A stretch of DNA of 64,000 nt from a virus. Lineage: Duplodnaviria > Caudoviricetes. A program made the position numbers and the translations under genes. Positions 75 through 57,001 of the stretch are shown in pieces (the first letter of the stretch is position 1; each line of letters starts with the position of its first letter). The notes beneath the pieces are model-generated. The model was not told where the DNA came from and searched no databases. It saw only the letters and a program-made list of their open reading frames with translations. Location of the stretch: IMG/VR virus record IMGVR_UViG_3300017963_000189, one strand, 5' to 3'.

Positions 75-3000
75 TTATTCTACAGTTATTTTTGACGGCC
101 CTTGATCAGTGGCTTTCAATTTGTTTGGATTAGTAAAGGTAATCTCAACAGGATCTTTTCCATCAATAGTTGTATCTTTTGTATTCAATGTTCCTTTATA
201 CCAAACTTCACTTTGTATTTCTCTATATTGTATCAACCAATTTCCTTGATGTAAATCATACACATAATGATAAGGGCTTATCACTACTTTACCATCCGAA
301 CCAGTATAATATTGTAATCGAGTATATGTTTTTTCGCCATTACTTCCAATAGATTCACTAATATGATCAAATACTTGTCGTTTCGTTTGAAATCTACTCC
401 AATTATAATTAGGATTATCTTGTACCGGCCATACCATATCAACTGTTTGTTGATCATCCCTTTCACCAGGTACAAAAAGTGATCCAGTACCAGCATAAAT
501 ACCAGGACTAAATCCTTGTTGAGCTTGTTTCGAACCTGCTCCGGCTAACGATTCATCAGTAACAACGACCGGTGTTTGTTGAAAATATGTTGATTTTTCA
601 CCCATACCCAAATCTAACTCAGTAACATGAGTCAAATATTCAGATTCAGACATATGAGTCATTTGAAGTGTAGTTTCATAATGAATATAATCATTACTAA
701 ATGTTGGATGTGTCGCCCGATCTAAATTGGCTTGATAATCCTTTCTATCTTCCTCAAGTGGTTGCCATTTGACTTTATACCTCTCAAGTATATGTGGTTC
801 AATCAATGTTCCAACTACTGGCTTAGCACGTGCAGGAATTAATGATTTCAAATGATCAAAAAATGATTGATCGTAATTCTTTATCACTCGTATAAAATCA
901 TTGTGATCCGGTCTACTTGTGTACTTTTCCCAATAAAATTTATTCAATTCATCTAAATCACTATATGTACTTTTAAACTTATCTCTTGGATCACCGATAT
1001 ATCCTAATAAATCTAATCCAGCATATGTTCCAACTATGTCTTTATTTATCGCGTCTTGTGGAGTAAAATATATTCCAAGTTTTGGCGAATCATTTGGTGC
1101 TCTATCAAATTGAGCTTTCTCAACTCTCTTTCCAACACTTAGTTGACCATACGCAATCTCGTTGTCCTCAAGTCGTATTTTGTTGTTGATAAAACGACCA
1201 GCACCAATCAACGGTGTAATAGCAGCATATTCTTCCGTTATTGAATGATAATTTATTTCACTATCGAAATTGTTCGCTGTTCCAGGTAAAACGCCAGGAC
1301 CTGGACTTGAACCTTGATTTGCTTTTATATCAGTTACGGTCGTCGATAACGCATGATTTACAGGATCGTCAAATGAATATCTCAATGTCAAATCCCAATA
1401 TGTTCTTCTTGGATCGTTTGAGTTGTATGACTTCGGCCATCTTACATGATTATTAAAAGTTGATTCCGATAACGCTGTTTGATATAATTTAAATTCTTGT
1501 ACCGATCCAGTGAATTGTTGTCCAAATGTAGCACTACTATCTCCACCAATGTAAAATGTTCCTGCTGATTGATAATCAGAAGTATAATTAATGCTAGCAG
1601 AAGATTCCCAAATAACGTGATCCCCTTCGGCTTTTTTAGTTATAAGTTGAAGTGAATCATTTGACCCACTAACTCTTAACATTACAGTGTTAAACTCACC
1701 ATCATAATATTGATATTCTTCCGTATTAGCACTATTATTAGAACTATCCACGATTTGAAGGCTACCATATTGACTTTTCGAACCTTTGACAAGATTTATA
1801 CCAAAATACCCATTTACATGAAATAATGATTGTGTTAGTTTTGTGTCAGTCGGCGCGGCAGCGAACCTGAACTCAATCGTTTGTGGATATATACTTTGTG
1901 TGTACGCACTCCAAGCACGTGAAACACTTTGACTGCCTTCCATATCTAACGCATATACAAAATCGTCAAATATCCAAGCTGACTTTTGTTCAAAATTTTC
2001 ATAATCTCTTGGATCAGGACCACCGTATTCCCTTATCGTCAATAATGATGTTGGAATACCATAACACGCTAATAACGCCTTGATCGATCTCGACGTTCCT
2101 TTTGTTTTCAACATATAAGGTAAATTATTAAGTATTCTTCTCCATATTTCTTTTGACGCATCTTCGCTACTCATATGTGTTTCATTCGAACCACTTACAC
2201 TAACCGCAGACCCGCTTGAATATGAACTATAACTACCGGTATTAGCAAATCCTAATGTATACTTCCACAACTCAGTATTATCTTGACCACCTTTCATGTC
2301 AAATCCCATTGACTTAGCAACATTATATGTTAAGTCTTTCGCCAGACCCTCATATAACGATTCATCACGATTGGCGACCATCGTAAGATGTCTTACATAT
2401 GTGTACAAAATGTCAAAATGTTGTCCTATCATATACATGAATGTCAAATAATCCTCGTTATCTTCCTCTACACTCAGGTACGCAGGTATGTTGTTTATAA
2501 AACTATGTATGTTGTCACGATCAAATCTCTGAGCAATCGTTAGTTGATCGTTATACCAATCTGTCGCTTGGGATGAAGTCAATGTATATAATTCATATGG
2601 TTCAGTTGTATTTTGTTTCGGCCATTCATGTATTGGATTTGTAAGATATTCGCCACTTAAAAGCGATCCAGAATAAGATGAACCGGATGTGTAATATAAA
2701 TGTTTTTCATATGAATCAAATGTATTTATCGTTTGACGAATCTTTGACCTAAATCCACTAATACTTTGTGACACATATAACGAATCGGCTACACTCGCGG
2801 AATATAGTGTCGTTTTCTTTATATTTTCGTTGTATTCGTCTATAACTTCCATTTTATATTTGAAATTTTTCAATCTTTCTTCGGCTGAACCAAAATGTAT
2901 AAAGTTATAATAACTACTCCAATCAATATTCAATGAAACGTCACCAACATCTGACGCACTAAAATAATGATCTATAAGTTGTTGTGATGTCGAAGCTTCA

Positions 3001-4166
3001 GTAGAAACTAAACTATTCCACGTCTCAAATCCAGTCCCACGACCCGTCATTCCTGCAACTTCTACATCCCAATTCGCTGGACGTAGTAATCTACCTTCCT
3101 CTTGTATATCTTCACTACCAAGTAAGAAAACTTTTTCAATGACTGATGGAGTTATTTGACGTGAAACCCATAATTGATCTTTTACCTTTACTTCTCTTGG
3201 AAGTGGCTCATATAATTTGAATACGATTGAATTTGGCGCTTCAGGATATTTTACATTGTCATTTACCCAATTAGTAACCAAATAATGTTTACCATCACCA
3301 AAATTCAAATAAAAATCACCATTCTTGGCATCAGCATCTTGAAATGTAAATCCATTTACTAATTGAGTCAAATCCTGGAACGCTTGAAGCATCACTTCTT
3401 GTTGATCCCAACCATCACCAAAAACTTCAGTCCAAACACTTTCATGTACACTATTTATTATTTCTTGTTGTTCTTCTCTTGAAAGAATATCTTGTGGATT
3501 GTTTTGATATGCATCTATTGCAGCAGCAACTTTCTCAATCGTTGTATCTCGTAAAGTAATTCTTTGACCACTAACTTGTCTCAATAATTTTCTATCATAT
3601 CCAAAAGCGGAAGCAAATTGGCGAGCCCCAATTCGTTTCATTCTCGCATTGAAACGACGATTGAATTCTTCCTTCCCAACTCCAGGATTAGAAAAATTAA
3701 GAAATTCACTTGCAAATATAGCATCTATTCCGGCAACATCTTTCTTTACCGGTAAAACTCTTATTTCCTTTCTTGATGGTGAAATTTCATCAATGAATAC
3801 TTTCCCACGATCACGTAAACCAACCGTACCACTACCTAACTCGTCACGATAAAAATCATAAACAATACGATATTGACCACGATTAAAACCACTACCTCTT
3901 AAATCGTCGCCAGGACGTAAGATTAATCTCGTTGGCGAAAACTGATCGTATAATTCGTACGGTGGTTCTTTGATTGTCCATAAAATTTGATTATCTTCCA
4001 TGTCATACACAGAAAATTCAATCGTATCTCGACCACTCAAATTATAGTTTTCTTCAAGAAATTTATCAAAAAAGATTAATGTCAAATCCTTTTCAGCTAT
4101 CTTTTCGCCACGAACCCGACCAGTTTGGTTCTTTATTTCTTCATAATTTTTAAAATCTTTGATCAT
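75..4166 (-). CDS. Large virion structural protein (probable baseplate/tail component), 1363 aa
   Basis: Long ORF at the distal end of the baseplate module; no catalytic motif recognised; function inferred from context. Confidence 0.55.
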   Translation of the reverse strand: MIKDFKNYEEIKNQTGRVRGEKIAEKDLTLIFFDKFLEENYNLSGRDTIEFSVYDMEDNQILWTIKEPPYELYDQFSPTRLILRPGDDLRGSGFNRGQYRIVYDFYRDELGSGTVGLRDRGKVFIDEISPSRKEIRVLPVKKDVAGIDAIFASEFLNFSNPGVGKEEFNRRFNARMKRIGARQFASAFGYDRKLLRQVSGQRITLRDTTIEKVAAAIDAYQNNPQDILSREEQQEIINSVHESVWTEVFGDGWDQQEVMLQAFQDLTQLVNGFTFQDADAKNGDFYLNFGDGKHYLVTNWVNDNVKYPEAPNSIVFKLYEPLPREVKVKDQLWVSRQITPSVIEKVFLLGSEDIQEEGRLLRPANWDVEVAGMTGRGTGFETWNSLVSTEASTSQQLIDHYFSASDVGDVSLNIDWSSYYNFIHFGSAEERLKNFKYKMEVIDEYNENIKKTTLYSASVADSLYVSQSISGFRSKIRQTINTFDSYEKHLYYTSGSSYSGSLLSGEYLTNPIHEWPKQNTTEPYELYTLTSSQATDWYNDQLTIAQRFDRDNIHSFINNIPAYLSVEEDNEDYLTFMYMIGQHFDILYTYVRHLTMVANRDESLYEGLAKDLTYNVAKSMGFDMKGGQDNTELWKYTLGFANTGSYSSYSSGSAVSVSGSNETHMSSEDASKEIWRRILNNLPYMLKTKGTSRSIKALLACYGIPTSLLTIREYGGPDPRDYENFEQKSAWIFDDFVYALDMEGSQSVSRAWSAYTQSIYPQTIEFRFAAAPTDTKLTQSLFHVNGYFGINLVKGSKSQYGSLQIVDSSNNSANTEEYQYYDGEFNTVMLRVSGSNDSLQLITKKAEGDHVIWESSASINYTSDYQSAGTFYIGGDSSATFGQQFTGSVQEFKLYQTALSESTFNNHVRWPKSYNSNDPRRTYWDLTLRYSFDDPVNHALSTTVTDIKANQGSSPGPGVLPGTANNFDSEINYHSITEEYAAITPLIGAGRFINNKIRLEDNEIAYGQLSVGKRVEKAQFDRAPNDSPKLGIYFTPQDAINKDIVGTYAGLDLLGYIGDPRDKFKSTYSDLDELNKFYWEKYTSRPDHNDFIRVIKNYDQSFFDHLKSLIPARAKPVVGTLIEPHILERYKVKWQPLEEDRKDYQANLDRATHPTFSNDYIHYETTLQMTHMSESEYLTHVTELDLGMGEKSTYFQQTPVVVTDESLAGAGSKQAQQGFSPGIYAGTGSLFVPGERDDQQTVDMVWPVQDNPNYNWSRFQTKRQVFDHISESIGSNGEKTYTRLQYYTGSDGKVVISPYHYVYDLHQGNWLIQYREIQSEVWYKGTLNTKDTTIDGKDPVEITFTNPNKLKATDQGPSKITVE

Positions 4167-40726: not shown

Positions 40727-42370
40727 TTAGAATTTATCCATAATAAAGTCACTCATTATAGATGGCGCGTTTGTGTCGAAACCAACAACGTCGAGTGAGC
40801 TTCTATCCTTTGGATCAGCAATAGTGAAACCATTCGATGCCATACCAACTACAACTAACTTGACATCGTGACCCACTTTATGACGATAACGATCCATTGC
40901 TTCGCTTGGTTGGATATTTCCTGCCCAAGTTTCATTATCGGTATATACAAAAATCGCGTCAAAATCCTTGTTCATACCAGCGGCCCACAATGCTGGTAAA
41001 GCACAATCAGTTCCACCAAAATCTAACCTGCTAACGTAATTATCCACATCATTCAAACTCATTCTATCGTGTAACTTCAATTCCGTTACATTAGTTAACG
41101 CTTGACCAGAACCATACCAACCACCACCGGTAAATCCAATAATACCCCAGTTCTTTTCAGCTTTCATCGTTACCATAGCCATTGCGGACGATGCGGAACG
41201 ACAACTGATAAATGGAGCGTTTTGAATACCACTACCCATAGAACCAGATACATCCAAAGCAATCAAGATTCTCTTACCCGTAGACTCAATGTTCTTGAAT
41301 GCTTTGTAAAATCCTGCGTCCAAAGCGGAAACGATTTGTGGTACAACGTTCCAAGTATTAGACCCACGAAAACCACGTCCTGCTTCATAGGTTTTCAAAG
41401 CCATTAATAATTGAATAGGATGTACACGTGCTTTCTTTAACGCTTCATCATTAGTGATCTTGTCAACCACTAAGTTGATTTCGTCAAAGTTACCACTTTC
41501 CAAGATACCAACTTTGGATAAGTTACCTAAATTACGAATTAACGCAGTCATAGGCATTGTTGGTAACAACGCTTCGTATACTTTCTTTCCTAAGAATTGT
41601 GTAGGAATAGCTTCCCGTGGCAAGTTATATTCCTTAATCAAGTTCACAATTTCCTTTTCATTTTCGGCTTTCTTTGCTAACTCAAAACCATAAATCATTG
41701 GAATTTTCCTATACTTCTCAATGTCGCCATTGATTCCTTGAGTAATCCAATGGAATACCTTGTTCATATCTTCATTGACGGCTTGTGCATGAGACTTACG
41801 TAAAATGTCACGGTGACTCCACCCGTCACGAGATTGATACTTGACTACTTGATACGCCAACTTGTTGATGTCCTTGTCGGTGTACCACTTGGCGAATGCC
41901 TTACGTAATCCACGACCCCAACCACGCATCGAGTTTACGAACTCTGTGAAATGGAATAAATGAGTACCAATACGTGCTACTTTACTCAAGTTGTCCAAAG
42001 CGTACTTCTTAGCTTCGTCAGTTCCATAGGAAGCAACCATCGCTAATACGAATAACGCTGGATCATTATTAGGTGCACGACCCTCTAAAGAAATCTCAAC
42101 TACACGATTTACAACTTCAATGCCATCTTCCTTGATTAACTTTTCAATGTTCTTAGCATTCTTCTTAGTTAACTTTTGCGCGGATGCGTAATAAGTTGGT
42201 TGATCGCTACCCAATACTAAGAAACGATTTAACTTATCCCACTTGTCCAACTTAAATGAGACGCCACCGCCATAATTCTTAGCCATATCTTTCTTACGAC
42301 CCTTGATTTTTTGGTTTTGTGGAGTTGCTACCTTAGTAGACTTGTTTAAAGTTTTGGTATAATTTTGCAT
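40727..42370 (-). CDS. rsr: Ro60/TROVE-domain RNA-binding protein (start MQNYTK)
   Basis: LNRFLVLGS...YY, KYQSRDGWSHRDILR, MTALIRNLG, ARVHPIQLL, vWA MIDAS LDVSGSM, GGTDCALP, VYTDNETWAG. Confidence 0.95.
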   Translation of the reverse strand: MQNYTKTLNKSTKVATPQNQKIKGRKKDMAKNYGGGVSFKLDKWDKLNRFLVLGSDQPTYYASAQKLTKKNAKNIEKLIKEDGIEVVNRVVEISLEGRAPNNDPALFVLAMVASYGTDEAKKYALDNLSKVARIGTHLFHFTEFVNSMRGWGRGLRKAFAKWYTDKDINKLAYQVVKYQSRDGWSHRDILRKSHAQAVNEDMNKVFHWITQGINGDIEKYRKIPMIYGFELAKKAENEKEIVNLIKEYNLPREAIPTQFLGKKVYEALLPTMPMTALIRNLGNLSKVGILESGNFDEINLVVDKITNDEALKKARVHPIQLLMALKTYEAGRGFRGSNTWNVVPQIVSALDAGFYKAFKNIESTGKRILIALDVSGSMGSGIQNAPFISCRSASSAMAMVTMKAEKNWGIIGFTGGGWYGSGQALTNVTELKLHDRMSLNDVDNYVSRLDFGGTDCALPALWAAGMNKDFDAIFVYTDNETWAGNIQPSEAMDRYRHKVGHDVKLVVVGMASNGFTIADPKDRSSLDVVGFDTNAPSIMSDFIMDKF

Positions 42371-42410
42371 GATTCGACCCTCCTGTTTAAAGGTAAATGT
42401 TATATAAACT

Positions 42411-42437
42411 AAAAAACCCGACAAGATATTTGTCGGG
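42411..42437 (-). terminator. Terminator/attenuator hairpin in Ro60 leader
   Basis: CCCGACAA-ATATC-TTGTCGGG plus T6, about 40 nt before the start codon. Confidence 0.7.
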
Positions 42438-42460
42438 TTACTATTGTAAACAAAATATCT

Positions 42461-42522
42461 TGGATAAAAAGTTGTTGATGTTATTTTTACGTGTGATCGC
42501 GATAATCATCAACTACGACCCA
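42461..42522 (-). ncRNA. Y-RNA-like element Y1
   Basis: TGGGTCGTA-GTTGATG-ATTATC...CATCAAC-AACTTTTTATCCA. Confidence 0.65.
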
Positions 42523-42599
42523 AATTATGTCTGAGATTGTAGGTTTTACAATCTCGTTACTGTTTGTACACATGGTACATCAGCTAAAATATAAAAAAT

Positions 42600-42915
42600 T
42601 GGCGGGATTCGCATCTACCCGCAAGCGTTCATTCAGACTTGAATTATTCGAGCATGTCGGTTAACAACCGTCGTTATTAACCTTATGACAGGAAGAACCT
42701 ATCTATTTATCTTCCAACGTCCACTAGCAGTAGCTCTATTGCCAATTATAATGGGGATTTTAGCAGACGAACCATTGATATGTTTTTTTCAACCCCAAGA
42801 GTTGATCCCACTCCCATATCGACAGTCTCTTATTCTCACTGAACTCGCAACCGACTCCCAGAACTTTTCAGTCTGGGCTATCGTACCTTACTCACCTGCA
42901 TGAGTTATTCAGTCA
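42600..42915 (-). ncRNA. Unidentified ~315-nt structured RNA
   Basis: No credible ORF, higher GC, closing stem GACTGAAT/ATTCAAGTC, GNRA hairpin CCCAGACT-GAAA-AGTTCTGGG, 3' hairpin GCGGG/CCCGC. Confidence 0.55.
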
Positions 42916-42944
42916 CAAAATTTTCAAAGATCAAAATAAAATGA

Positions 42945-43027
42945 TGGATAAAGGTGGCTAACGAGATTGACGCGCGTCACGTCCTGCGTTTTTTTCGATT
43001 AAAAGATAACGTTAAACCGACGACCCA
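42945..43027 (-). ncRNA. Y-RNA-like element Y2
   Basis: TGGGTCGTC-GGTTTAACG-TTATC...CGTTAGCC-ACCTTTATCCA. Confidence 0.65.
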
Positions 43028-43058
43028 TCAAGTCCTGTATCAATCAGGACTTGTTTAG

Positions 43059-43132
<74 letters not shown>

Positions 43133-43203
43133 ATACAATATGTTATATATACTTATATACTATTCAACTAAATAAAAGTTCCATTTTTCTCAAAAAAAAA
43201 TTT

Positions 43204-43437
43204 AGGATAAGGAACGACCAGAGAGAGTTGATTTTTCCGTGAAACTATCACGTCTTTTTAACGTTGTTGTTAAAGACTCTCAACGGGGCTTCTTAAACTT
43301 GCTCCCACACAAGAAACTCTAAGACCGCGAAAACTTTCTTCGGTTAAGATTTTACGACGCGGCTAGCAGATCGAGTTTACAATCTACCTTTCATCCTTTT
43401 AGAATTATCTGTAAGGTAACTCTGCATCAACGACCCT
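43204..43437 (-). ncRNA. Y-RNA-like element Y3 with ~190-nt inserted domain
   Basis: AGGGTCGTT-GATGCAGAG-TTACC...CTCTCTCTGGTC-GTTCCTTATCCT; own upstream promoter. Confidence 0.55.
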
Positions 43438-43569
43438 AAAAGTTGAGAAAAATTTTCAAAGAACTATTTGTACTACCATATATAAGTATATACAAATTTT
43501 CGAAACGTATCTATTATACTACTTTTTGTGAAAAAAAGTTCCATTTTTTGAAACTTTTTTTATTTTTTA

Positions 43570-43923
43570 TCATCCGTCTCGCCATGCTTCAGAATAAGTA
43601 GAAAATTCAAGATCATCACCGAACTTTTCCTTGAGTTTCTTTTCTACTCTCGCCTTAAATTCGGCTCCAGTTTCATCGTCTTTAACTTGATCCCACGACA
43701 CACCAATATAACAACCATAATCTCCGTCATAAGGCCATAGACATTCCATATCAAGTTCTTTTCCTAATTCATATCCAATTTCCCATACATCAGTATCATC
43801 GTCGTCGTTTTCAACTTCCATATTTAAAGCCTCACGAAATTCATCTTCCGATTCAAAACAAATTCCATAAATCAAGAATGAAGATGTGGAACTATTACTT
43901 ACAAACCCATTTCTTACTTTCAT
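43570..43923 (-). CDS. GFVSNSS-motif protein 8 (MKVRNGFVSNSSTSSF)
   Basis: N-terminal motif; AGGA RBS. Confidence 0.85.
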   Translation of the reverse strand: MKVRNGFVSNSSTSSFLIYGICFESEDEFREALNMEVENDDDDTDVWEIGYELGKELDMECLWPYDGDYGCYIGVSWDQVKDDETGAEFKARVEKKLKEKFGDDLEFSTYSEAWRDG

Positions 43924-56875: not shown

Positions 56876-57001
56876 TGGTATTTGTAGGATTCGAACCTAA
56901 ATTCCGGTGTATCAGACCGACGTGTTACCGTGAGCGGTTATCCAATAAGATTAACCGGTCTCTTATTGGCTTCCCTTTGTGCTCTATTACACTACCATAC
57001 C
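56876..57001 (-). ncRNA. tRNA-Ile(GAU)-like RNA with ~50-nt domain inserted in D-loop
   Basis: GTGT/ACAC D-stem, TCGGT-CT GAT AC-ACCGG, T-loop TTCGAAT; imperfect acceptor; insert closed by GAGC/GCTC. Confidence 0.7.

What the first reader, a model, noticed from the sequence alone, without database searches (positions are those of the whole stretch)
42600..42915. Unknown ~315-nt structured RNA nested between two Y-like RNAs in the Ro60 leader
Seen: ORF-free, GC-richer block with a closing helix (GACTGAAT/ATTCAAGTC), a GAAA-tetraloop hairpin (42857-42877) and a 3' hairpin. It contains AATAAGAGAC, also found in the D-loop insert of the tRNA-like RNA at 56876. I do not recognise RNase P, SRP, 6S or intron cores in it. 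Inference: a large phage ncRNA functionally linked to Ro60.
Basis: partly seen in the sequence, partly recalled or inferred. Interest (0 to 1): 0.62.

Follow-up and report, generated by a model that had tools for sequence, protein, structure and literature searches.

The report
Enlarged manA-like RNA beside phage Ro60
A real, intricately folded non-coding RNA of about 330 bases lies among Y-like RNA and tRNA genes just upstream of a giant phage's Ro60 gene; it is an enlarged, uncatalogued relative of the 'manA' phage RNA (reported in a 2026 preprint to build RNA-only cages), and its function is still unknown.

Summary
The flagged block is a real structured RNA gene on the minus strand, about 42920 to 42591. 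I found four more distinct copies in uncultured-phage contigs. Each lies upstream of a Ro60 gene 62-65% identical to the window's. On the five-sequence alignment, a 90-pair, 15-helix model with one pseudoknot has 92.8% of cells paired. 48 pairs show compensatory changes; 0 of 500 shuffles reach this, and slid controls give 7-13.

It is not a wholly unknown class. The only Rfam family it hits is manA (RF01745), below threshold: 20.1 bits here, 34.3 bits (E 2e-7) in one relative, gathering score 55.2. It shares manA's terminal clamp, with the same spacing:
- an end-to-end closing helix;
- a GUGACUGAAUAA...UAAGGU hairpin;
- a 3' hairpin with an 11-nt UA...AAU loop.

Its middle is different and twice as long.

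A functional link to Ro60 is not shown. Co-location may only reflect an array of small-RNA genes.

Best reading: a free-standing manA-type architectural RNA. Earlier notes of this scan report enlarged manA-like RNAs in tRNA arrays of other phages; the Ro60/Y-RNA setting is what differs here.

The parts
42591..42920 (-). Whole manA-like RNA: closing helix to the start of the U-tract, about 330 nt
   Evidence: Homologous over its full length in 4 other phage contigs. 90-pair covarying structure. The Rfam manA sub-threshold hit spans 42936-42592.
42916..42920 (-). P1, 5' strand of the closing helix. Weak in the window (UUUUG/CAAUU; can extend with A-U pairs). It is CCUCG/CGAGG or GAGUG/CACUC in relatives.
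   Evidence: 4 of 5 pairs show compensatory change. Same position as the manA model's end-to-end helix.
42597..42601 (-). P1, 3' strand
42885..42913 (-). Module 1: ACU/GGU helix, GAAUA/AA internal loop and P2 hairpin. This is the manA signature GUGACUGAAUAA...UAAGGU.
   Evidence: Covarying stems. The same signature retrieves more than 120 viral contigs. Of the 16 loci I put through Rfam, the five of the standard form score 161-196 bits as manA and four variant forms 60-122 bits.
42852..42883 (-). P3 hairpin capped by a GAAA tetraloop (42866-42869)
   Evidence: 12 pairs, 8 with compensatory change; GAAA in 5/5
42827..42848 (-). 5' strands of the long arm P4-P5-X2. Includes GAAU-AA-GAG, one side of the second GAAUA/AA loop module.
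42625..42652 (-). 3' strands of the long arm X2-P5-P4. Includes CUC-GAAUA-AUUC, the other side of module 2.
   Evidence: All three X2 pairs are compensated in the window against L001, L088 and L090; L007 pairs only after a one-column shift.
42655..42820 (-). Family-specific core. It holds P6 (42815-42820 with 42777-42782), a pseudoknot (42811-42814 with 42691-42694), the P7 hairpin (42789-42805), P8 (42760-42771 with 42716-42727), P9 and the P10 hairpin (42659-42682). The conserved unpaired P8 loop reads AAAUCCCC..UUGGCA..AGCUACU.
   Evidence: The core pattern finds only this family in the viral, metagenome and genome collections.
42602..42622 (-). P11, the 3' hairpin: 5-bp stem and conserved 11-nt loop UAGAUGCGAAU
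   Evidence: Stem covaries (GGG/CCC to GAG/CUC) and the loop is conserved. Same element and spacing as in manA.
42588..42596 (-). U-rich tract directly after P1, present in all 5 homologs; possible 3'-end or termination signal
   Evidence: function inferred
42943..43029 (-). Upstream Y-like RNA with GGGUCG...UUAUCC ends (context)
   Evidence: not called by Rfam
42459..42523 (-). Downstream Y-like RNA (context)
   Evidence: Terminal stem in the MFE fold; homologs in L001, L088 and L007
43058..43132 (-). tRNA-Met (CAU) in the same cluster
   Evidence: a tRNA-Met lies near the RNA in all 5 loci
40727..42370 (-). Ro60 gene (TROVE + vWA_Ro60 domains)

Best explanation
It is a free-standing structured RNA gene of the manA architectural type.

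Anatomy (shown):
- A short helix joins the extreme 5' and 3' ends.
- Four arms radiate from the junction it closes:
  - a hairpin carrying the manA signature loop (GAAUA opposite AA);
  - a GAAA-capped hairpin;
  - a very long arm that repeats the GAAUA/AA loop and carries a pseudoknotted core of about 170 nt;
  - a 3' hairpin with a conserved 11-nt loop.

Expression (inferred): it is made as part of the small-RNA gene cluster (tRNA-Met, Y-like RNAs) ahead of Ro60. Its 3' end is set at the U-tract that follows the closing helix.

Action (inferred): it acts as an RNA in its own right, not as a switch for Ro60. By analogy with manA, its conserved exposed elements are candidates for RNA-RNA contacts, possibly self-assembly. 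These are the GAAA tetraloop, the palindrome-containing AGCUACU stretch and the 11-nt loop.

Link to Ro60: co-location with Ro60 is most simply explained by its sitting in an RNA-gene array that also holds the Y RNAs.
For: - Five distinct homologs were found. On them, 90 pairs have 92.8% of cells paired and 48 pairs show compensatory change. No shuffle of 500 reaches this, and slid controls give 34-49% paired.
- Invariant G-U pairs fix the strand.
- Rfam's only family-level hits are manA. They are full-length and end at the covariation-defined closing helix: 20.1 bits (E 0.004), 34.3 bits (E 2.3e-7 locally, 1.7e-5 in 28 kb) and 17.8 bits.
- A side-by-side view of confirmed manA RNAs and this family shows the same order and spacing of elements. 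The order is P1, UG, ACUGAAUAA-hairpin-UAAGGU ... UUG, hairpin(UA..AAU), C, P1'. P1 covaries throughout.
- It is not a leader for Ro60:
  - a Y-like RNA and a separate strong terminator (42439-42415) lie between it and Ro60;
  - in L007, a tRNA, other RNAs and three ORFs (1.4 kb) intervene;
  - small manA-like RNAs sit inside phage tRNA arrays (L167/L149).
- The manA preprint reports a conserved core with variable peripheral helices, and kissing-loop and GNRA-receptor contacts between copies.
Against: - The manA scores are all below the gathering score (55.2). L001 gives only fragmentary hits and L088 none at E<=10 in the 28-kb search.
- The middle two-thirds has no counterpart in manA, so the shared clamp could be a reused module and not common descent.
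- There are only 5 sequences (about 4 lineages) from one phage clade.
- There is no expression, end-mapping or assembly data.
- The closing helix is weak in the window itself (3 Watson-Crick pairs).
- All five copies are next to Ro60, so a direct functional link is not excluded.
Confidence: 0.62

Rival explanations
1. It is a partner or client of Ro60. The RNA is bound by the phage Ro60/Y-RNA particle as substrate, cofactor or scaffold, and this is why it is kept at the Ro60 locus.
For: - All 5 copies lie upstream of Ro60 on the same strand, within the Y-like RNA cluster. Three of them were retrieved by an RNA-only pattern that did not use Ro60.
- Gene order inside the cluster is shuffled between phages, yet the RNA stays in it.
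- It ends in a single-stranded U-rich tail, the kind of end Ro60 is known to thread. This point is from established knowledge and was not tested here.
Against: - It has no Y-RNA-type terminal stem (GGGUCG...UUAUCC with a bulged C), and Rfam gives no Y_RNA or YrlA hit.
- 78 other Ro60-bearing viral loci have no such RNA.
- 120 manA-signature loci have no Ro60 nearby.
- All five carriers belong to one clade, so the synteny may simply be inherited.
Confidence: 0.2
2. It is a cis-acting riboswitch or attenuator. Ligand-dependent formation of the closing helix next to the U-tract would terminate transcription before the downstream Y RNA and Ro60.
For: - manA was first proposed as a riboswitch candidate.
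- The closing helix is followed by a U-tract in 5/5 copies.
- In 4 of 5 loci it lies 180-250 nt upstream of Ro60.
Against: - A separate canonical terminator and a Y-like RNA lie between it and Ro60.
- In L007 it is 1.4 kb and several genes away.
- No alternative (anti-terminator) pairing is conserved.
- It is very large for an aptamer.
- manA relatives occur inside tRNA arrays, where there is nothing to regulate.
Confidence: 0.08
3. It is an unrelated new RNA class that converged on, or borrowed, two common structural modules (the GAAUA/AA loop hairpin and the long-loop 3' hairpin). It is not a manA relative.
For: - All scores are below the Rfam threshold.
- The central 230 nt is not alignable to manA.
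- The GUGACUGAAUAA...UAAGGU signature also turned up inside a ROOL RNA (L220), which suggests a portable module.
Against: The two modules, the closing helix and the linker nucleotides (UG before, UUG and C around the 3' hairpin) all occur in the same order and spacing as in manA. Three members independently give end-to-end manA alignments.
Confidence: 0.1

Closest known systems
manA RNA motif (Rfam RF01745; Weinberg et al. 2010, PMC2864571; cryo-EM preprint 10.64898/2026.07.01.735769)
   Same: - An end-to-end closing helix.
- A 5' hairpin with the GUGACUGAAUAA...UAAGGU internal loop.
- A GNRA-capped hairpin next to it.
- A 3' hairpin with an 11-nt UA...AAU loop, flanked by UUG and C.
- Phage-borne.
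- Sub-threshold but significant CM hits.
   Different: - About 330 nt against about 190 nt. From the 5' signature to the 3' hairpin is 300-313 nt against 150-165 nt.
- manA's three-way junction is reduced to one hairpin.
- manA's fourth arm is replaced by a long arm with a second GAAUA/AA loop and a pseudoknotted core of about 170 nt.
- It is followed by a U-tract.
- It sits in an AT-rich giant phage at a Ro60/Y-RNA locus, not in cyanophage 5' UTRs.
- Its scores are below the gathering cut-off.
ROOL and GOLLD large phage/bacterial RNAs (RF03087, RF01998; bioRxiv 10.1101/2024.12.08.627333)
   Same: Large ornate non-coding RNAs of phages, usually among tRNA genes, and reported to form RNA-only multimers. 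One ROOL (L220) even contains the manA 5' signature.
   Different: No Rfam hit to either at E<=10. The size (330 nt against 580-800 nt) and the helix plan differ.
Y RNAs / YrlA (RF00019, RF02553), the RNA partners of Ro60
   Same: Encoded next to Ro60, in the same cluster and on the same strand as Y-like stem-loops.
   Different: It lacks the terminal bulged Ro60-binding helix and any tRNA-like module. Rfam gives no hit.

Membership tests
manA RNA (RF01745) | Covariance-model score at or above the curated gathering score (55.2 bits) | tested here: not met
   Window 20.1 bits, L007 34.3, L090 17.8, L001 only fragments of 12-14 bits. Confirmed manA of the standard form score 161-196 bits and variants 60-122 bits.
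manA RNA (RF01745) | Helix between the extreme 5' and 3' ends, closing the whole fold | tested here: met
   Columns 17-21 with 342-346; 4 of 5 pairs compensated. It covaries in the same position in confirmed manA.
manA RNA (RF01745) | 5' hairpin with the conserved internal loop GUGACUGAAUAA ... UAAGGU directly after the closing helix | tested here: met
   42885-42913; stems covary. The signature retrieves manA RNAs from viral contigs.
manA RNA (RF01745) | 3' hairpin with a UA......AAU loop, preceded by U(U)G and followed by one C and the closing strand | tested here: met
   42602-42622
manA RNA (RF01745) | Central three-way junction (GUGGUG hairpin, GNRA hairpin, third hairpin) plus a simple fourth arm; total about 190 nt | tested here: not met
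   Only the GNRA hairpin is present. The fourth arm carries about 230 extra nt, left unaligned by the model (227- and 182-nt insertions).
manA RNA (RF01745) | Self-assembly into closed oligomers (preprint) | not testable with these tools
   Needs SEC, native gel or cryo-EM. Only candidate contact elements are seen (GAAA loop, AGCU/UAGCUA palindrome, 11-nt loop).
Y RNA / YrlA | Terminal stem with the conserved bulged Ro60-binding helix | tested here: not met
   There is no such stem in the covariation-supported fold, and Rfam gives no Y_RNA or YrlA hit at E<=10. The flanking elements do have GGGUCG...UUAUCC ends.
ROOL / GOLLD / HEARO / OLE / raiA and other large bacterial RNAs in Rfam | Covariance-model match | tested here: not met
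   No hit at gathering score in the whole window, nor at E<=10 in 42300-43650.
Riboswitch / transcription attenuator | Aptamer directly coupled to an expression platform of the regulated gene | tested here: inconclusive
   A U-tract follows the closing helix in 5/5 copies. However, other RNA genes and a separate terminator lie before Ro60, and L007 has 1.4 kb in between.

The most novel reading that the evidence does not exclude
The RNA is a self-assembling manA-type particle that works with, or is looked after by, the phage's own Ro60/Y-RNA machinery. Ro60 might check its folding, load it or tether it. If so, this would be the first biological context for manA-type RNAs and a concrete client for a phage Ro60.
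Probability: 0.12. Interest if true: 0.85.

Novelty: new variant of a known kind. Interest (0 to 1): 0.58.

Why it matters
manA RNAs have had no known function since 2010. A 2026 preprint now reports that they build RNA-only cages.

- A twice-as-large relative with the same clamp but a new core shows that the manA junction is a reusable chassis, found beyond marine cyanophages.
- Its place among tRNA and Y-like RNA genes, with its own U-tract, argues that manA-type RNAs are free-standing RNAs and not gene switches.
- Its constant neighbourhood with Ro60 gives a testable lead: does Ro60 bind it?
- It is also a new, well-defined target for structural work on RNA assemblies.

Tried and rejected
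Searches that found nothing more:
The contigs of the closest Ro60 relatives (P0002-P0016, 60-89% identity; ENA/Logan) could therefore not be fetched, and the set stayed at 5 RNAs.
- Exact scans with the 3' hairpin and the P7 motif gave only chance hits in GC-rich coding DNA.
- nhmmer and motif scans of 78 other Ro60-bearing viral loci (Ro60 identity up to 53%) found no copy.
- The core pattern found nothing real in 185,579 prokaryote genomes and nothing new in IMG/VR.
- blastn of the 1.2-kb region against GenBank phages matched only the tRNA-Met.
- There is no second copy in the 161.6-kb phage record.

Readings I rejected:
- An antisense protein. Stop-free runs of 58-111 codons exist on the plus strand. 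They have no conserved start, shift frame between homologs, give no Pfam hit, and are explained by the purine-rich sense strand.
- The AATAAGAGAC link.
- RNase P, SRP, 6S, introns, GOLLD and ROOL.

Not attempted: a full-length covariance model of my own (about 340 positions), because the tool's stated calibration limit would be exceeded.

Full report
**Setting**

The window comes from a 161.6-kb uncultured virus record. It carries 36 tRNA genes and a tmRNA gene, all on the minus strand. The ORF at 42370-40727 (minus) is a Ro60 protein with TROVE and vWA_Ro60 domains.

Upstream of it, on the same strand, lies a run of non-coding elements. In order they are:
- a long Y-like RNA (about 43440-43203);
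- tRNA-Met (43132-43058);
- a Y-like stem-loop (43029-42943);
- the flagged block;
- a 55-nt two-hairpin element (42585-42531);
- a second Y-like stem-loop (42523-42459);
- a canonical terminator (42439-42415).

The minus strand folds to -95 kcal/mol with z -3.0. The decisive evidence is comparative.
- A Ro60-guided search found a syntenic copy in L001 and another in L007.
- A scan of JGI metagenomes with a pattern from the RNA's most conserved core added L088 (identical in L095) and L090. That scan did not use Ro60.
- All five copies lie upstream of a Ro60 gene 62-65% identical to the window's.
- MAFFT alignment A3 has 74% mean column identity. RNAalifold gives 82 pairs, 40 of them compensated.

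I refined the model by eye. This added a second loop module, helix P6 (columns 118-123 with 156-162), a pseudoknot (columns 124-127 with 245-248) and a re-registered P9. The refined model was then counted on A3:

| measure | model | controls |
|---|---|---|
| pairs / helices | 90 / 15 | |
| cells paired | 92.8% | 34-49% when partners are slid |
| pairs with change on both sides | 48 | 7-13 when partners are slid |
| shuffles reaching the observed values | 0 of 500 | |

Invariant G-U pairs fix the strand. The RNA is therefore real. It runs from about 42920 to 42597, followed by a U-rich tract that all five copies share.

- The GAAA hairpin and the 3' hairpin are confirmed.
- The proposed closing helix GACTGAAT/ATTCAAGTC is not confirmed. 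Those two strings resemble each other because the RNA contains two copies of one internal-loop module: helix, GAAUA, helix on one strand and helix, AA, helix on the other. One copy is at 42885-42913. The other is formed by 42827-42835 with 42641-42652. In L001, L088 and L090 the second copy reads GUGACUGA(A/U)AAUCC, almost the same as the 5' signature.
- The 10-mer shared with 56958-56967 is at chance level, is not conserved, and is a stem strand in the other RNA.
- The plus-strand 72-aa ORF is not a gene.

**What is it?**

At gathering thresholds Rfam calls nothing here. At permissive thresholds the only family-level match is manA, RF01745:

| copy | bits | E-value |
|---|---|---|
| window | 20.1 | 0.004 |
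| L007 | 34.3 | 2.3e-7 locally; 1.7e-5 in 28 kb |
| L090 | 17.8 | 1.3 in 28 kb |
| L001 | 12-14, fragments only | 0.2-0.95 |

The window and L007 alignments span the whole model and leave 227 and 182 nt in the middle unaligned. Their ends coincide with the closing helix that covariation defines independently.

The pattern GTGACTGAATAA-N8-30-TAAGGT retrieved more than 120 viral contigs. I put 16 of them through Rfam. The five of the standard form score 161-196 bits as manA, four variant forms score 60-122 bits, and the other seven gave no manA hit at the gathering score.

I laid confirmed manA RNAs beside the five new RNAs. They show the same order and spacing: P1 strand, UG, ACUGAAUAA, hairpin, UAAGGU; then, at the 3' end, UUG, a 4-5-bp stem, a UA......AAU loop, the stem, C, and the P1 strand. 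P1 covaries across all of them.

The topology around the junction is also the same (four arms), and a GNRA-capped hairpin follows the signature hairpin in both. The differences are these:
- manA's three-way junction is reduced to one hairpin.
- The fourth arm is hugely expanded.
- From the 5' signature to the 3' hairpin is 300-313 nt, against 150-165 nt in manA.

The core pattern (AAAUCCCC..UUGGCA..AGCUACU) exists nowhere else in the three collections. I therefore file it as an enlarged, uncatalogued variant of the manA kind. It is not a member of RF01745 as curated.

**How does it probably work?**

Shown:
- the fold;
- its conservation;
- its place in a cluster of small-RNA genes;
- a U-tract after the closing helix in 5/5 copies.

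Inferred: it is a free-standing RNA. Between it and Ro60 lie another RNA gene and a proper terminator. In L007, a tRNA, further RNAs and three ORFs intervene. The order of elements within the cluster differs between phages. Small manA-like RNAs occur inside phage tRNA arrays (L167/L149).

The 2026 preprint reports that manA RNAs keep a conserved core, vary their peripheral helices, and assemble through kissing loops and a GNRA-receptor contact. Here the invariant GAAA loop, the conserved unpaired AGCUACU stretch (UAGCUA in three copies, a perfect palindrome) and the 11-nt loop are candidate contact points. This is analogy, not evidence. The GAAUA/AA loop looks to me like a UAA/GAN-type internal loop; that is from memory and was not tested.

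**Link to Ro60**

For a link: 5 of 5 copies are co-located with Ro60, including the three found without using Ro60.

Against a link:
- All carriers are one clade.
- 78 other Ro60-bearing viral loci lack the RNA.
- 120 manA-signature loci lack Ro60.
- The RNA has no Y-type Ro60-binding stem.

I put a direct partnership at about 0.2 and a cis-regulatory role at under 0.1.

**Novelty and context**

I found no paper that describes an enlarged manA relative or a manA-type RNA at a Ro60 locus.

After I had reached the manA reading, I consulted the scan's earlier notes. They report enlarged manA-like RNAs of 300-400 nt in tRNA arrays of other phages. The kind therefore recurs in this scan. The Ro60/Y-RNA setting and this particular core are what is specific here. 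Those notes are unchecked and I did not use them as evidence.

**Limits**

- Only five sequences were available.
- There are no expression data.

Noticed in passing
window 42531-42585 (-); also L007 1588-1650 and L088 2895-2955 (-): A conserved two-hairpin element (AGCUGA, hairpin, AACAGUAAYGA, hairpin) lies directly 3' of the manA-like RNA's U-tract. Both stems covary between phages, and the window fold has z -4.2. It is absent in L001. It could be a small RNA, a 3' extension or a processing or promoter region for the next Y-like RNA.
   Followed up: partly
L088 3307-3424 (-): The tRNA-Met just upstream of the RNA carries an insertion of about 45 nt right after the CAU anticodon. Rfam still scores it as a tRNA (46.7 bits) but ARAGORN misses it. 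It may be an intron-containing phage tRNA.
   Followed up: no
L220 3239-3835 (-): A ROOL RNA (286 bits) in a phage tRNA/tmRNA array contains the manA 5' signature GUGACUGAAUAA-N18-UAAGGU near its 3' end. This may be a shared module or chance.
   Followed up: no
L167 6318-6500 (+), L149: A manA-like RNA of about 150 nt, with the same clamp (closing helix UUGUGG/CCACAA), sits between tRNA-Gly and tRNA-Pro in a phage tRNA array. It scores below Rfam's gathering score.
   Followed up: partly
window 43203-43440, 42943-43029, 42459-42523 (-): Three Y-like RNAs have GGGUCG...UUAUCC terminal stems, and one is 240 nt long. None is called by Rfam's Y_RNA or YrlA models at E<=10. Homologs are present in L001, L007 and L088.
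   Followed up: partly
window 43535-43545 and 43175-43185 (-); L001 about 2705-2716: The motif AATGGAACTTT occurs exactly ahead of the long Y-like RNA and ahead of tRNA-Met, and also ahead of the cluster in L001. It may be a phage promoter element. Window-wide the count is not significant (7 with up to 1 mismatch against 3.2 expected).
   Followed up: partly
L001 about 2860-3020 (+): A short, very Arg/Lys-rich ORF (about 53 aa) lies between the promoter-like region and the first Y-like RNA. It is absent at this place in the window. My Pfam call failed on wrong coordinates.
   Followed up: no
window 42380-42390 (-); L007 2985-2999: The Ro60 ribosome-binding region reads GGAGGGUCGAAUC-AUG. It therefore contains the same GGGUCG as the 5' strand of the Y-like stems.
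   Followed up: no
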